DNA of 64,000 bases from the human T2T-CHM13v2.0 reference genome, Homo sapiens (GCF_009914755.1 NC_060929.1); one strand, 5' to 3'. Numbered from the stretch's first letter, positions 4,745 through 26,820 are shown. Notes: generated by a model not told the origin, from the sequence alone. A program made the numbers and translations.

Positions 4745-7155
4745 TTTTTCCCCCAGTTTTACTGAGATACAACTGATATGCAAAATCTCTACATAATTAA
4801 TGTATACTTGGTGAGTTTGAACATGTTTACACTCATGTCGCCATCACTATAATCCAGGAAATAAATGTATCCATCATGCCAAAATTCCCCCTTTTTACTC
4901 TAATGAGAGCTATCCTATTAACCAATGAGTAAGTGCACTGTATCTTATTGTTAACTGCAGGCACTATTTTGTACAGACCTCTAGAACTTACTCATCTTGT
5001 ATAACTAACATTATATCTATTGAATAACAACTCCCTTGGTAACCATCATTTTATTATCTACTTCTATACCTTTGACTGTTTTAGATGCCTCATTTAAAAC
5101 GAAACATACAATATTTGTCTTTCCGTGACCGACTTATGTCGCTTAACATAATGTCTTCCAGGTTTATACATGTTGCCACAAATGTTAGGTTTTTCTTCTT
5201 TTTCAAGGCTAAATAATATTCAACTTTATGTGTTTAACACATTTTCTTTGCCTATTCATTCATCTGTTGATAGACATTTGGGTTATTTTGGCTACTCTGA
5301 ATATTGTTGCCATGAACATGGGAGTGCGGATATCTCTTTGAGACCCTGATTTCAATTCTTTGGGTTATATAGCCAGAATTGAGATTGCTAGATCATGTGG
5401 TAATTCTATTTTTGATTTTTTGAGGACCCTCCATACTGTTTTCCATGGCAGCAGTACCGTTTTACATTTTAAAGGGTTCCTGTTTCTCCACAACCTCACC
5501 AACATTTGCTGTCTTTTTTTTTTTAATAATAGCCATCCTATCAGGTGTGAGGTGATATCTCAATGTTTTTGATTTGCATTGCCCTGATGATTAGTGATAG
5601 TAAGCATCTCTTTTGTTTGTCATTTGTATGTTTTCTTTGGAGAAGTGTCTATTCAGATCTTTTCTCCATTTTTAAATCAGGTTATTTGATTTTTTTGCTA
5701 TTGAGTTGTAGGAGTTCTTTATATGTTTTGGAAATTAATGCATTATCAGAAATATGGCTAGCAACTATTTTCTCTCATTTCATAGGTCGCCTTTTCACTC
5801 TGATGTTTCCTTTGCTGTTCAGAAGTGTTTTCGTTTAATGTAGCTCTACTTATAATTTTTGCTTCTGTTGCCAGTTTTTGGGTGCCATATCCAAGAAATT
5901 ATTACTGAGATCAATGACAAGAAGCTTTTCCCCTCTGTTTTCTTCCAGGCATTTTATGGATTTAGATCTTATGTTCAAATCTGTAATTCATTTTCAGTTA
6001 ATTTTTGTGTATGATGAATGACACAATTTTATTACTTTGGATGTGGATATACAGTTTTCCCCCCAAAAAATTATTGAAGAGACTGTCCTTCCCTTATTAT
6101 GTATTATCAGCATCCTTATTGAAGATTAATTGACCGTATATGTGTGGGTTTACTTATGAGCCTACTATTCTGTTCCATTGATCTATATGTCTATTTTTAT
6201 GCCAGTCTCAAACTGTGTAAATTACTGTAGCTTTGTAATATATTCTCAAATCAGAAATTTTGGTAGCTCCAGCTTTGTTCTTACTATTCAAAATTGTCTT
6301 GACTATTTAAGGTCTTTTGCAGTTGCATGAAAATTTAAGAATTGTTTTATTTATAATTATAAAAATGTTTTTAAGATTTAGCTAGGGATTACATTGAATC
6401 TGTAAGTTACTGTGGGTAGTGTAGACATTTTCACATAGAATGTATTTTTGGGAAAAGCACACAAAATCCACATTTTTATCTAATTTCTTTCATCAGTATT
6501 TTATAATTTTAAGCATTCAAATGAGTCTTTCACCTCCTTAGTTAGGTTTATTCCTAGGTATTTTATTCTTTTTGATCCTATTGTAAATGAGACTGTTTTC
6601 TTGACTTTTTTTTGGATAGTACATTGTTAAAGAATAGATATGCAACTCACTTTCGTGTGTTGGTTTTGTATTCTTCAGCTATACTTTGTAGCCTGAATTA
6701 GTTTATTAGTTCTAACCTTTTTTATATTTTTAGAGTCTTTAGGGTTTTATACATATAAGATCATGTCATTCCAGAGTCTTTTTTTATAATTTCAAATTTG
6801 ATTTAAGATGCAAGGGGTACATGTGTGGGTTTGTTACGTGGGTATATTGTGTGATGCTGAGGTTTGGGGTAGGATTGATCTCATTACCCTGATATTGAGC
6901 ATATTACCCAATAGTTAGTTTTTCAACCTTGTCCTCCTTCATCCCCCCTTCATCCCTCCCTCCTCTAGTGGTCCCCAGTGTCTATTGCCATCTTCATGTC
7001 CACAAGTACCCAGTGTTTAACTGCCACTTAGATGTGAGAACATGCAGTTTTCTGTTCCTCTGTTAATTTGCTTTGGATTATGGCCTCTAGCCCAGCAGCC
7101 CTTTTAAAATGAGCCCAATACAGAGTCTCCTTTGGTGACTGATGCTGATTAGGTC
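4745..7155 (-). mobile_element. Ancient L1 (L1MA9/10-like 3' end): 3' half of ORF2 plus 3'UTR, capped by a ~63-nt non-ORF2 leader (7092-7155) and interrupted by an L1PA16-like insertion
   Basis: Antisense L1 3'UTR and ORF2 run from 4745 to 6769, where ORF2 similarity stops at ATGACATGATC. The leader is homologous to 24870-24933. Confidence 0.8.
6779..7091 (-). mobile_element. L1PA15/16-like 3' end fragment
   Basis: Poly-T then ggggtacatgtg...gtgatgctgaggtttgggg...gtccccagtgtctattg. Degenerate TSD ccag-agtcttttt (6771-6783) and ccagcagccctttt (7092-7105). Confidence 0.8.
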
Positions 7156-7191
7156 TCCAATAATTATTCTTTATATAAAAGAATGGTGCAA

Positions 7192-7969
7192 TTGTGAATG
7201 GGAGTTCACTCATGATTTGGCTCTCTGTCTGTTGTTGGTGTATAAGAATACTTGTGATTTTTGTACGTTGATTTTGTATCCTGAGACTTTGCTGAAGTTG
7301 CTTATCAGCTTAAGGAGATTTTGGGCTGAGACAACGGGGTTTTATAGATATACAATCATGTCGTCTGCAAACAGGGACAATTTGACTTCCTCTTTTCCTA
7401 ATTGAATACCCTTTATTTCCTTCTCCTGCCTAATTGCCCTGGCCAGAACTTCCAACACTATGTTGAATAGCAGTGGTGAGAGAGGGCATCCCTGTCTTGT
7501 GCCAGTTTTCAAAGGGAATGCTTCCAGTTTTTGCCCATTCAGTATGATATTGGCTGTGGGTTTGTCATAGATAGCTCTTATTATTTTGAGATACGTCCCA
7601 TCAATACCTAATTTATTGAGAGTTTTTAGCATGAAGGGTTGTTGAATTTTGTCAAAGGCCTTTTCTGCATCTGTTGAGATAATCATGTGGTTTTTGTCTT
7701 TGGTTCTGTTTATATGCTGGATTACATTTATTGATTTGCATATATTGAACCAGCCTTGCATCCCAGGGATGAAGCCCACTTGGGGGAGGGGGGAGGGATA
7801 GCATTGGGAGATATACCTAATGCTAGATGATGAGTTAGTGGGTGCAGCGCACTAGCATGGCACATGTATACATATGTAACTAACCTGCACATTGTGCACA
7901 TGTACCCTAAAACTTAAAGTATAATAATAATAATAATAAATAAAGTTAATTTGATATTTTGCAGAAAAA
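7192..7969 (+). mobile_element. 5'-inverted (twin-primed) L1PA3-like insertion with a short 3' transduction
   Basis: 7192-7781 is antisense ORF2 RT (encodes [10 protein letters not shown]). 7781-7944 is the sense 3'UTR end. TSD aaaagaatg[g/a]tgcaa at 7177-7191 and 7970-7984. Confidence 0.92.
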
Positions 7970-8102
7970 AAAAGAATGATGCAAAGGCTAATAATACTCA
8001 TATTTTACAGATGAAGAAACTGGGACTTAAAGATAATATCTAAAAGCAGTTATCATAGTTACAGCCTCTGGCAAATAGAAAACACTCATTAATACTAATT
8101 GC

Positions 8103-24531: not shown

Positions 24532-24737
24532 TTTAGTCCAAAATATGGTGGGAAGGCTTATAAAATAATTATAAAAAAGGACAACTAGAAAATAAAAATT
24601 ACCATACTAGACATACATTCAAATATATTTGAATGTAAATATTTTAAATAAACTCATGAAAAAGAAAGCATTGTTAACTGGGTTCCAAAAGTGTGTGCTG
24701 CTTTAATAAAGTTAGTTTAAATATAAGGACAAATAAA

Positions 24738-24853
24738 ATATGAATATATCTTCATATATATACATATATAACATATATACATATATAAACACATATATAT
24801 TATATTATATATTTTAATATATGTATATTATTTATATATATATATTTTTTTTT
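24738..24853 (+). repeat. Degenerate (TA)n low-complexity tract
   Basis: Read directly from the sequence. Confidence 0.85.
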
Positions 24854-24868
24854 CACACATGACTGGGG

Positions 24869-26820
24869 GCCTAATCAGCACCAGTCACTAAAGGAAGCTC
24901 TTAACTAGGCTTATTTCAACAGGACTGATAGGGATGACATATTCCTATATGTAGAAAACCCTAAATACTCCAGAAAAAAAATGTTGGAGCTAAGAAAGGA
25001 ATTCAGGATACAAAGTAAAGTTTCAAAATACAAGATCAACACACAAAAAGCAGTTGCAGTTTTATACACTAGTAAGAAACTATCCAGAAAAAACAAATTA
25101 AGAAAACAATCCCATTTACAATAATTTCAAAAGAATAAAATATTTAGAAATAAATTTAACCAGTGAGGCAAAAGATCCGTACGCTGACAACAAAAACCAG
25201 TAATGGAAGAAATTCGAGAAGGAGAAATGGAAAAGATCTTTGACTTTAGTTCTGGCAATAATTTTTTTTAGGTATGACACCAAAAGCAGAGGCGACAAAA
25301 GCAAAAATGAACAAGTGGCATTGTATGAAACTAAAAAGCTCCTCCATAGCAAAATAAATAGCCAAATAAATGAAAATGCAACCCACAGAATAAGAGAAAA
25401 TACATGCAAACCACATATTTGATAAACGGTTAATATTCAAAATATATGAGGAACTCCCACAACTCAATAGCAAAAAAAAAAAAAAAAAAAAAAAAAAAAC
25501 AAATAATGCAATTAAACATTGGCTAAAGGATTTAAAGAGACATTTTTCCAAAGAAGACATAAGAATGGCCAAGAAGCATATGAAAAGGTGTTCAGCATCA
25601 GTAATCATCAGGAACATGCAAATCAAAACCACAATGAGATAACACCTCACATCACAGAATTGCTATTATTAAAAAAAATAAAGATAAGTATTAGCAAGAA
25701 TATGGAGAAAAGGAACCCCTACTACACTGGTGATGGAACTGTAAATTGGCACAAGCATTATGGAAGACAGTGTAGAGGTTCCTCGAAATAGTAAAAATAT
25801 AACTACCATATGAGACAGCAATCCTACTTCTGTGTATTTATCCAAGGAATTGAAATCAGAGTCTCGAAGAAATACCTGCACTGTCATGTTCACCGCAGCA
25901 TTTTTCATAATAGCCAAGATGGAAAAAGCTGCCTAAATGTCTATTAATGGATGGATAAATAAAGAAAATGTGATAAATATATGCAGTGGAATAACATTTA
26001 GCCTTTAAAAAGAGGGCCAGGTGTGGTGGCTCACTCCTGTAATCCCAGCACTTTGGGAGGCTGAGAGGGGTGGATATCTTGAGCTCAGGAGTTAGAGACC
26101 AGCCTGGGCAACACAGTGAAACCTTCTCTTTGCTAAAAACACAAAAATTAGCTGGGCACAGTGGCATGCATCTGTAGTCCCAGCTACCTGGGAGGCTGAG
26201 GTGGGAGGATCATTGGAGCTTGGAAGGCGGAGGTTGCAGTGAACTAAGGTGGTGCGGCCACACTCCGGCCTGGGAGACACAGCAAGACCCTATCTCAATA
26301 AATAAATAAATAGGAATTCTACCATTTGTGACAAGATAGGTGGACTCACAGGATGTTATGCTAAGTGAAATAAGCCAGACACAGAAATACAAACACTGTG
26401 TGATCTCACTTCTATATGGGATCTAAATCAATCAAACTCAGATGTAGAAAGATAATTTTTCAGAAGCTGGGGGTTGGAAAGATGAGGAGATAATAGTCAA
26501 ATGGTGCAAAGTTTCAATTATACAAGGTAAGTAAGTTCTGGAAATCTACACACAGCATAGTGCCTACAGCTAGAAATACTCCATTATATACTTAAAATTT
26601 GCTAAGAGAGTAGCTCTTATGTTAAGTGTTCTTACCACAAAATAATAATAATAATAAATCGGGTTGGGGAAAAGTTTGGGAGGTAAAGGTCGTGTCTATG
26701 GCCTTGAGTGTGGTGATGGTTTCACGGGTGTATACTTACTCCCACACTCATCAAGTTATGGACCATAAACATATACAGCTTTTTACATGTCAATGATACC
26801 TCAATAAAGTAGTTTAAAAA
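24869..26820 (+). mobile_element. Ancient L1 (L1MB2-like 3' end) with a ~64-nt non-ORF2 leader joined to ORF2 at ATGACAT
   Basis: Leader 24870-24933, ORF2 remnant from 24934 (one large internal deletion near 25240), and 3'UTR ending cctcaataaagtagtttaaaaa. TSD at[g/a]actgggg at 24859-24868 and 26821-26830. Confidence 0.82.
26015..26311 (+). mobile_element. AluJ-like, nested in L1
   Basis: J-type features (cttgagctcagg, gggaggatca, gaccct) and a (TAAA)n tail. Confidence 0.9.

What the first reader, a model, noticed from the sequence alone, without database searches (positions are those of the whole stretch)
6762..24940. Two independent ancient L1s share a ~64-nt leader fused to the same ORF2 nucleotide at a splice-acceptor-like site in the RT FADD codons
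Seen: element A (minus strand, ~4745-7155, after removing the L1PA16-like insert at 6779-7091) reads cctaatcagcatcagtcaccaaaggagactctgtattgggctcattttaaaagggctgctgga|ATGACATGATC. Element B (plus strand, 24869-26820) reads cctaatcagcaccagtcactaaaggaagctcttaactaggcttatttcaacaggactgataggg|ATGACATATTC. The first 60 nt are 47/60 identical without gaps, both leaders start at about the same point, and both switch to ORF2 at the same base. In intact ORF2 (for example 38235-38260 in this window) that base follows ttgtccctgtttgcAG, a pyrimidine tract plus CAG. The elements have different 3'UTR types (L1MA9/10-like versus L1MB2-like), and B has its own TSD, which argues against local duplication. Inference: these are retrotransposed spliced RNAs in which a short first exon, probably an L1M 5'UTR start, was spliced to an acceptor inside the catalytic motif. 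That would delete ORF1, the endonuclease and half of RT, giving a roughly 2-2.5-kb non-autonomous form that must be mobilised in trans. Two copies within 18 kb suggests a high-copy family or a recurrent splice. I do not recall this junction among described SpIREs, but it may already exist as a Dfam L1M 5'-end model.
Basis: partly seen in the sequence, partly recalled or inferred. Interest (0 to 1): 0.8.

Follow-up and report, generated by a model that had tools for sequence, protein, structure and literature searches.

The report
Two-copy ancient L1 chimera, no family
Two old L1 fragments 18 kb apart in an HTR4 intron share a unique 64-base head joined to the same base of the L1 reverse-transcriptase gene, probably a one-off spliced transcript copied back into DNA and then copied again, not a new repeat family.

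Summary
A (minus, 7153-4745) and B (plus, 24870-26821) each carry a 63-64-nt non-L1 leader (50 of 63 aligned bases identical). In both, the leader is joined to L1M ORF2 at the first base after the CAG of the FADD codons.

- Three pattern scans of the whole T2T genome find the leader at these two places only. It is therefore not a high-copy family, a Dfam-type 5' end or a recurrent splice.
- The two 3'UTRs align end to end, so they are not different types.
- The flanking repeats of A and B resemble each other, so independence is not shown.
- B lies inside an older L1M and is flanked by a duplication of that element's own sequence. It is therefore a true retro-insertion of leader plus L1.
- In the intact L1PA copy in this window, the junction is one of only 3 of 5564 positions with 10 or more pyrimidines of 12 followed by YAG. 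This favours use of a splice acceptor.
- No donor locus was found. The leader matches no L1 part tested, no Rfam family and no HTR4 exon tested.

Best reading: a single ancient exon-trap chimeric transcript, retrotransposed and present as two local copies. Main rival: the leader is A's native flank, carried to B.

The parts
7154..7164 (-). A: 11-nt repeat just upstream of the leader (ATTATTGGAGA). It may be the 5' copy of a target-site duplication, or the last bases of homology with B.
   Evidence: 7 of 11 columns identical to B's 24859-24869.
7091..7153 (-). A: leader, 63 nt, with no detectable L1 origin.
   Evidence: 50 of 63 bases identical to B's leader.
6779..7090 (-). Later L1 3'-end fragment (ORF2 end, 3'UTR and A run) inserted into the last bases of A's leader. 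It is flanked by its own duplication at 7105-7091 and 6783-6770.
   Evidence: sequence; tblastx of 6997-7090 to L1PA positions 5208-5308.
4745..6769 (-). A: L1M from ATGACAT (FADD codons) through the rest of ORF2 and the 3'UTR, ending in an A run at 4749-4745.
   Evidence: 5103-6769 aligns to L1PA 5266-3568..
4733..4744 (-). A: repeat after the A run (GATTACTGGGAC).
   Evidence: anchored similarity to the L1M ORF2 site where B sits scores 11, reached by 22 of 933 null flanks.
24859..24869 (+). B: 5' copy of the target-site duplication (ATGACTGGGGG).
   Evidence: 9 of 11 bases identical to 26821-26831, including an exact 7-mer.
24870..24933 (+). B: leader, 64 nt.
24934..26821 (+). B: L1M from ATGACAT to the 3' end and A run (26816-26821). 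It has an internal loss of about 610 nt of ORF2 after about 25220 and an Alu at about 26011-26310.
   Evidence: 24933-25213 aligns to L1PA 3567-3838 and 25273-26011 to 4450-5170..
26821..26831 (+). B: 3' copy of the target-site duplication (ATAACTGGGGA). It is native sequence of the older L1M.
   Evidence: a profile of 29 L1M ORF2 copies aligns from 26817 onward, E = 3e-55.
23644..24690 (+). Older L1M ('H'), 5' part: the C-terminal half of ORF1 up to about the start of ORF2. It is followed by a TA-rich microsatellite at about 24740-24850.
   Evidence: tblastn places ORF1-like residues 187-333 at 23644-24068. BLAST against L1M copies maps the region to -1400...-607 relative to the B target site.
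26817..29395 (+). Older L1M ('H'), 3' part: ORF2 from about residue 250 to its 3' end. This is the host of insertion B.
38235..38257 (+). Reference view of the junction site in the intact L1PA copy: a pyrimidine tract plus CAG, followed by ATGACAT.
   Evidence: 10 of 12 pyrimidines, one of 3 such sites among 5564 positions.

Best explanation
One composite unit is present twice.

Shown:
- Each copy is a 63-64-nt leader with no detectable relation to L1. It is joined directly to L1M ORF2 at the first base after the CAG within the FADD codons. The rest of ORF2, the 3'UTR and a short A run follow.
- B lies inside an older L1M. It is flanked by an 11-nt duplication of that element's own sequence (about 14 nt when I extend the repeat by eye). 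B is therefore a retro-insertion of an RNA that began with the leader.
- The T2T genome holds no third copy within the reach of the scans.

Inferred:
- The RNA was an exon-trap product. A short first exon, transcribed from a promoter outside L1, was spliced onto the cryptic acceptor that the L-S-L-F-A-D-D codons create in a sense-oriented L1M. The transcript ended at the L1M poly(A) signal and was copied into DNA in trans by the L1 machinery.
- The junction arose once.
- A lies 17.7 kb away, head to head with B. It is a second copy made from the same short-lived source or from B itself. It is not an independent sample of a family.
For: - The junction is at the same ORF2 base in both copies.
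- B has retro-insertion hallmarks. Its flanking repeats share 9 of 11 bases including an exact 7-mer. The 3' copy is contiguous with L1M ORF2 homology (E = 3e-55), and an A run is present.
- The junction site is one of 3 of 5564 positions in the in-window L1PA with at least 10 of 12 pyrimidines plus YAG. With at least 9 pyrimidines there are 8 such sites, and with at least 8 there are 19.
- The same tract plus AG is seen in L1M copies (alignments).
- The genome-wide scans find only A and B:
  - 26-mer, up to 3 mismatches: 4 hits. The 2 others do not extend.
  - 25-mer, up to 3 mismatches: 10 hits against 7 in the control. Only A and B are exact.
  - 30-mer with 7 N, up to 3 mismatches: 27 hits. 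All 25 others have at most 20 of 39 identities upstream.
- The leader matches nothing else in the window (next best E = 1.1), no Rfam family, and no part of 29 L1M loci (best E = 4.8).
- Precedent: gene exons fused to L1 at splice donors and acceptors and inserted with TSDs (Law and Burns 2025, sections read).
Against: - No donor locus was found, that is, no leader followed by GT. A conserved source exon should have matched the patterns.
- The acceptor argument is post hoc and rests on one event.
- A also reads as a textbook 5'-truncated L1. TTTT/AAAA lies 15 nt upstream of ATGACAT, and that 15-mer matches the 15-mer that begins at the A run after the L1 3' end in 11 of 15 positions (my reading). 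This fits the rival in which the leader is A's native flank.
- The tree is a star. A and B share 5 rare derived states against a mean of 3.6 (sd 2.0) over 91 pairs. Their relation cannot be resolved.
- The similarity between A's and B's flanking repeats is statistically weak. The anchored score of 4 is reached by 1537 of 4747 null flanks. A's 3' flank against the L1M site is reached by 22 of 933.
- The pattern scans miss copies more than about 12% diverged in the probed stretch.
Confidence: 0.5

Rival explanations
1. The leader is simply the native genomic flank of locus A, an ordinary L1M insertion that was 5'-truncated at the FADD codons by chance. A transcript that started 63 nt upstream of it and ended at the L1M poly(A) signal was retrotransposed into the older L1M to give B (a 5' transduction). 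Alternatively a DNA-templated repair event copied the same stretch. No splicing is involved.
For: - It needs only the two loci that exist.
- The leader is unique sequence.
- A has TTTT/AAAA 15 nt before ATGACAT. That 15-mer matches the sequence after the A run in 11 of 15 positions (my reading).
- B has a clean duplication around leader plus L1.
Against: - A random truncation point falling on one of the 3 strongest acceptor-like sites among 5564 positions is unlikely.
- Homology between A and B seems to run 8-11 nt upstream of the leader, with mismatches that are mostly transitions. This model has to call that chance.
- By my rough estimate, allowing for the free choice of repeat length, the 11-of-15 repeat has a chance probability of only about 0.05.
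Confidence: 0.2
2. A and B are two independent members of a family of spliced L1M RNAs (SpIRE-like). The first exon is the start of an L1M 5'UTR, and the element is high-copy or recurrently formed.
For: Both copies share the same junction and leader. The junction site looks like an acceptor. Each copy has flanking repeats.
Against: - No third copy was found in 3.1 Gb by three scans.
- A repeated 5'UTR would have left other copies.
- The only two copies lie 17.7 kb apart.
- Their flanking repeats are alike.
- Their 3'UTRs are of one type.
Confidence: 0.04
3. This is a purely DNA-level local inverted duplication of a stretch containing an L1M and its neighbourhood, with no chimeric RNA at any stage. 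It is the refuting case that the reader named.
For: Only two copies exist. They are close together and inverted. The flanking repeats of both are alike. About 590 nt of the older L1M is missing just beside B's 5' end.
Against: - BLAST finds no flank homology beyond the unit.
- The 3' flanks are unrelated beyond about 20 nt.
- B's flanking repeat is native to its host L1M and sits exactly at an A-rich site next to an A run, as a retro-insertion would.
Confidence: 0.15
4. The leader is L1-derived. It is either an inverted ORF2 piece from twin priming or the remnant of an internal ORF2 deletion.
For: There are weak minus-strand matches of the leader 120-150 nt upstream of FADD in the L1PA copy (E = 9.6). 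One pairwise test of 20 reached 3 of 400. Weak collinear matches to ORF2 lie just after B's target site, reached by 15 and 49 of 1000 shuffles.
Against: - None survives correction for the number of tests.
- The profiles give no hit.
- MAFFT places the two leaders at different sites.
- Scores at the predicted location are at or below the mean.
- 29 L1M loci give a best E of 4.8.
Confidence: 0.06

Closest known systems
mRNA/lncRNA-L1 5' chimeric insertions (Law and Burns 2025, bioRxiv 10.1101/2025.02.02.635956; outline and sections 24-25 read)
   Same: Unique non-repeat sequence sits in sense orientation at the 5' end of an L1, inside the target-site duplication. In some published cases the L1 part starts next to a splice acceptor. 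One chimera is also known as several copies, produced partly by separate retrotranspositions and partly by segmental duplication.
   Different: - Most of the 17 published cases carry near full-length L1 with acceptors in the 5'UTR region (positions 622/625 and 89). Here the acceptor is deep in ORF2, so ORF1, the endonuclease and half of RT are lost.
- The published 5' pieces map to known exons. Here no source was found.
- The element here is a much older L1M.
- I did not see their supplementary table of loci.
SpIREs, spliced integrated retrotransposed elements (Larson et al. 2018, PMC5860796; passages read)
   Same: A retrotransposed L1 RNA that had been spliced, recognised by a junction shared between genomic copies, with the usual insertion hallmarks.
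   Different: - SpIREs join an L1 5'UTR donor (position 97/98) to acceptors in the 5'UTR or ORF1 (622, 790, 853, 976).
- They were found only in L1PA1-L1PA6 and explicitly not in the older L1PA7-17, L1PB or L1MA.
- Here the 5' part is not detectably L1 and the acceptor is in ORF2.
L1 5' transduction and trans-mobilised read-through transcripts (recalled general knowledge; also in Law and Burns, section 24)
   Same: Flanking unique DNA is carried at the 5' end of a new copy because transcription started upstream of the source element.
   Different: The source would be a dead 5'-truncated L1M rather than a full-length element. The truncation point would coincide with a strong acceptor-like site only by chance.
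Twin-priming 5' inversion of L1 (recalled general knowledge; an example lies in this window at 7188-7975)
   Same: A non-collinear segment at the 5' end of a truncated L1, inside the target-site duplication.
   Different: The inverted segment must be L1 sequence. The leader shows no significant match to L1 on either strand.

Membership tests
SpIRE (Larson 2018) | The 5' side of the junction is L1 5'UTR sequence ending at the L1 splice donor. | tested here: not met
   The leader has no other genomic copy. It does not match the L1 sequence held here. The L1M 5'UTR consensus itself was not available.
SpIRE (Larson 2018) | The 3' side of the junction starts right after an AG acceptor inside L1. 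| tested here: met
   The junction follows ...TTGTCCCTGTTTGCAG in the intact copy. It is one of 3 of 5564 sites with at least 10 of 12 pyrimidines plus YAG. The acceptor is in ORF2, not in the 5'UTR or ORF1 as in described SpIREs.
SpIRE (Larson 2018) | Insertion hallmarks: target-site duplication and A tail. | tested here: met
   Met for B: repeats share 9 of 11 bases and an A run is present. For A two alternative repeats exist and neither is secure.
mRNA/lncRNA-L1 chimeric insertion (Law and Burns 2025) | Unique non-repeat sequence in sense orientation at the 5' end of L1, inside the TSD. | tested here: met
   Met for B. The leader is unique in the genome apart from A.
mRNA/lncRNA-L1 chimeric insertion (Law and Burns 2025) | The 5' piece maps to exon(s) of a transcript and ends at a splice donor. 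| tested here: inconclusive
   No source was found by the pattern scans. The HTR4 exon in the window does not match (scores reached by 1488 and 433 of 2000 shuffles), and the region at the annotated 5' end of the HTR4 span gave no hit. A diverged non-coding exon could have been missed.
mRNA/lncRNA-L1 chimeric insertion (Law and Burns 2025) | The 5' piece and the L1 arrive together in multi-species alignments. | not testable with these tools
   No other mammalian genomes are held.
snRNA/small-RNA-L1 chimera (U6/L1 type) | The 5' piece is a known small RNA. | tested here: not met
   Rfam at E up to 10: none of the 5 listed matches for B reaches a third of its family's gathering score, and there are no matches for A.
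Twin-priming 5' inversion | The 5' piece is the reverse complement of upstream L1 sequence. | tested here: not met
   Best minus-strand hit E = 9.6. No profile hit. Of 10 reverse-complement tests, 2 had 13 or fewer of 400 shuffles reaching the score and 8 did not.
Local inverted segmental duplication | Similarity continues into unrelated flanks on both sides. | tested here: inconclusive
   Only about 11 nt on each side are alike. There is no BLAST hit in the flanks. A's 5' flank is cut after 24 nt by a younger L1, and B's by a microsatellite.
Interspersed repeat family (Dfam-type model) | Many dispersed copies. | tested here: not met
   Two copies only.

The most novel reading that the evidence does not exclude
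This is the oldest spliced L1 chimera so far, and the first that uses an acceptor inside ORF2. A capped non-L1 first exon was spliced onto the acceptor formed by the L-S-L-F-A-D-D codons of an L1M. The resulting RNA of about 2.4 kb, lacking ORF1, the endonuclease and half of RT, was mobilised in trans at least once and possibly twice. If so, the most conserved RT motif of L1 doubles as a strong exon trap in every sense-oriented intronic L1.
Probability: 0.4. Interest if true: 0.5.

Novelty: new member of a known kind. Interest (0 to 1): 0.35.

Why it matters
If the splice reading is right, the codons of the L1 RT active-site motif form one of the three best acceptor-like sites in the in-window L1 copy. 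These codons are kept by selection in every active L1. Any sense-oriented intronic L1 could then trap upstream exons at that point and end the transcript at the L1 poly(A) signal. This locus would be a fossil showing that such a transcript reached the germline genome about as long ago as the L1M families were active. That idea can be tested with long-read RNA data and minigenes. As a genomic feature, however, it is a private two-copy relic in an HTR4 intron. It is not a new non-autonomous family, and it has no visible bearing on HTR4.

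Tried and rejected
1. Leader as a long target-site duplication of the older L1M just after B's site. Pairwise scores were reached by 15, 49, 83 and 13 of 1000 shuffles. The 29-copy profile gave no hit, and A's 3' flank against that L1M was reached by 652 of 1000. Dropped.
2. Leader as the older L1M's own sequence just upstream of B's site. Sliding-window scores at the predicted place (7.2-10.4) were at or below the mean of 9.4-9.8. Rejected.
3. Twin priming. Not supported.
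4. Leader as the 73-nt HTR4 exon at 61485-61557, or as sequence at the annotated 5' end of the HTR4 span. A resemblance seen by eye failed the shuffle test (1488 and 433 of 2000), and there was no hit in the 1.6 kb fetched. Rejected.
5. Small-RNA origin. Nothing.
6. Tree and shared derived states to test whether A and B are sisters. The tree is a star, with 5 shared states against a mean of 3.6. Uninformative.
7. Flank homology. The 3' test used wrong coordinates and is void. Its 5' test gave 148 of 3000. One search crashed and was rerun.
8. The own-genome DNA search with 92 nt found only itself, not even A. That mode is therefore too insensitive for this question.
9. Of the 60 hits of the 19-mer scan, only the 30 given as loci (28 plus A and B) were inspected. 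The other 30 were not.
12. Belancio 2006 was not held. I could therefore not check whether an acceptor at the FADD codons is already in print. Three searches and the passages read name none.
13. Supplementary Table 4 of Law and Burns was not opened and may list this locus.

Full report
**What is in the sequence.**

- Element A, read on the minus strand, runs as follows:
  - an 11-nt stretch ATTATTGGAGA at 7164-7154;
  - a 63-nt leader at 7153-7091;
  - a later L1 3'-end fragment at 7090-6779, with its own 14-15-nt duplication at 7105-7091 and 6783-6770;
  - then ATGACATGATC... from 6769.
- tblastx places the ORF2 end of an L1 at 6997-7090, which confirms the nature of the insert.
- Element B, on the plus strand, reads ATGACTGGGGG (24859-24869), a 64-nt leader (24870-24933), then ATGACATATTC... 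from 24934.
- BLAST against the nearly full-length L1PA copy in the window (34684-40247) aligns A from that copy's position 3568 and B from 3567. This is the ATGACAT that follows TTGTCCCTGTTTGCAG at 38235-38250.
The leaders share 50 of 63 aligned bases. The 19-mer at their start occurs twice in the window against 0.02 expected.

**How A and B compare.**

| Region | Identical / aligned | Identity |
|---|---|---|
| Leader | 50 / 63 | 79% |
| First ORF2 part | 212 / 284 | 75% |
| ORF2 C-terminal part | 525 / 725 | 72% |
| 3'UTR | 290 / 439 | 66% |

- The 3'UTR alignment runs to the last bases. The statement that the two have different 3'UTR types is therefore not supported.
- I built a tree of the ORF2 C-terminal part. 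It held A, B, 12 genomic copies chosen because they were the best full-length matches to B (12 of the 42 matches) and two in-window L1 copies as outgroups. The tree is a star. A and B sit in one unresolved clade of 10 rows with support 83/86.
- A and B share 5 rare derived states, against a mean of 3.6 (sd 2.0) over 91 pairs.
- The L1 bodies therefore say neither that A and B are sisters nor that they are not.

**Is there a family?** No.

- A 26-mer covering the best-conserved start of the leader, with up to 3 mismatches, has 4 matches in the 3.1-Gb genome (control 0). They are A, B and two that do not extend.
- A 25-mer shifted by 7 bases has 10 matches against 7 in the control. Only A and B are exact.
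- A 30-mer with N at the 7 places where A and B differ has 27 matches against 6 in the control. I fetched all 25 others, and their upstream 39 bases match the leader in at most 20 of 39 positions. Three of them belong to an unrelated repeat that happens to resemble that stretch.
- A 19-mer scan gave 60 matches against 13 in the control. Of the 30 delivered as loci, the 28 that are not A or B do not extend. The other 30 were not inspected.
- These scans would miss copies more than roughly 12% diverged in the probed stretch. Even so, a high-copy family or a repeated L1M 5'UTR would have shown up.

**Where B sits.**

- A profile of 29 L1M ORF2 copies aligns to the window from 26817 onward (E = 3e-55). 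The ATAACTGGGGA after B's A run is therefore native sequence of an older L1M.
- That older element continues to about 29395.
- Its 5' part lies upstream of B. The C-terminal half of ORF1 is at 23644-24068. The region up to about the start of ORF2 is at about 24690. A TA-rich microsatellite follows.
- About 590 nt of its ORF2 are missing between that point and B.
- B is thus nested in an older L1M. It is flanked by ATGACTGGGGG and ATAACTGGGGA (9 of 11 identical, with an exact 7-mer) and has an A run. These are the marks of a retro-insertion whose RNA began with the leader.

**Are A and B independent?** This is not shown.

- A's flanking repeats, ATTATTGGAGA and ATTACTGGGA, resemble B's in 7-8 of 11 positions. 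A's 3' repeat also resembles the L1M ORF2 site in which B sits (score 11, reached by 22 of 933 null flanks).
- A stricter anchored test of A's 3' flank against B's 3' flank is not significant (score 4, reached by 1537 of 4747).
- BLAST finds no homology further out.
- The only two copies in the genome lie 17.7 kb apart. For two random insertions that has a probability of about 1e-5. A reader of single windows could, however, only notice a close pair, so this number overstates the case.
- I conclude that one copying step links A and B, or links both to one short-lived source. I leave open whether that step went through RNA or DNA.

**What is the leader?**

- Nothing I hold matches it:
  - the rest of the window (next best E = 1.1);
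  - Rfam;
  - 29 L1M loci of 3 kb, both strands (best E = 4.8);
  - profiles of ORF2 around B's target site and upstream of FADD;
  - the HTR4 exon in the window and the region at the annotated 5' end of the HTR4 span.
- Several resemblances that I saw by eye failed shuffle tests or profile tests and are listed under tried and rejected. They were a long duplication of the host L1M, host flank, an inverted ORF2 piece and the HTR4 exon.

**Why splicing is still the best reading of the junction.**

- In the intact L1PA copy the junction is one of 3 of 5564 positions with at least 10 of 12 pyrimidines followed by YAG. There are 8 such positions at 9 or more pyrimidines and 19 at 8 or more, in a sense strand that is 40% A.
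- The same tract plus AG is present in L1M copies (alignments), as expected from the conserved codons.
- A random truncation, template switch or end-joining point would rarely fall there. This argument is post hoc and rests on a single event, so I weight it moderately.
- Published precedent exists. Law and Burns (2025, sections 24-25 read) describe 17 L1 insertions with gene or lncRNA exons at the 5' end. Six end exactly at splice donors, and some have the L1 part starting next to an acceptor.
- Larson et al. (2018, passages read) describe SpIREs with acceptors only in the 5'UTR or ORF1, only in L1PA1-6, and none in L1MA.
- An ORF2 acceptor in an L1M would be new within that kind. I could not read Belancio 2006 or any supplementary tables, so the site may already be in print.

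**The main rival.**

- At A, TTTT/AAAA lies 15 nt upstream of ATGACAT. That 15-mer matches the 15-mer that begins at the A run after the L1 3' end in 11 of 15 positions (my reading).
- Read this way, A is a plain 5'-truncated L1M with its own duplication, and the leader is its native flank. B would then be a retrocopy or templated copy that began 63 nt upstream.
- This rival needs no missing locus and no splice. It makes the acceptor-like junction a coincidence.
- Orthologous loci in other mammals would decide between the two readings.

**Verdict.** This is a real and curious structure, but a private two-copy relic rather than a family. The splice idea is plausible and testable, but its donor half is missing.

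Noticed in passing
window 7188-7975: A young L1PA insertion (about 94-96% identical to the in-window L1PA) with a 5' inversion. It has an inverted ORF2 piece (L1PA positions 3150-3748) followed by a direct 3' piece (5350-5513 onward), and is flanked by AAAGAATG-type repeats. This is a textbook twin-priming structure with a 1.6-kb internal gap. It lies 24 nt from A's leader.
   Followed up: partly
window 15186-16898: A second L1 with head-to-head pieces. 15186-16099 on the minus strand matches L1PA 4641-3733, and 16112-16898 on the plus strand matches 4662-5508. This looks like another 5' inversion.
   Followed up: no
window 24690-24859: About 590 nt of the older L1M's ORF2 are missing exactly beside B's 5' repeat. 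They are replaced by a TA-rich microsatellite, a T run and CACAC. A deletion that ends at the edge of a target-site duplication is an odd coincidence and may be a clue to how B or A was made.
   Followed up: partly
window 24420-24530: A tandem duplication of about 50 nt inside the older L1M, near its ORF1/ORF2 boundary (seen).
   Followed up: no
window 4750-4757 and 4734-4743: A carries ACTGGG twice at its 3' end: once just before the A run, where B has GTAGTTT, and once just after it. The first copy replaces the normal L1M terminal bases and is unexplained.
   Followed up: partly
L091, L092, L093 (chr1, chr2 and chr3 of the same genome): Three loci share a repeat of unknown family around ...GGTTACAG followed by a 30-mer that resembles the second half of the leader at 20 of its 23 specified places. 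The likeness does not extend, and I take it as chance.
   Followed up: partly
window 25220-25229 and 26011-26310: Relative to A, B has lost about 610 nt of ORF2 (L1PA positions 3838-4450). It also carries an Alu in its ORF2 C-terminal region.
   Followed up: no
window 8085-8150: A long (CAT)n microsatellite of about 60 nt just beyond the young L1PA.
   Followed up: no
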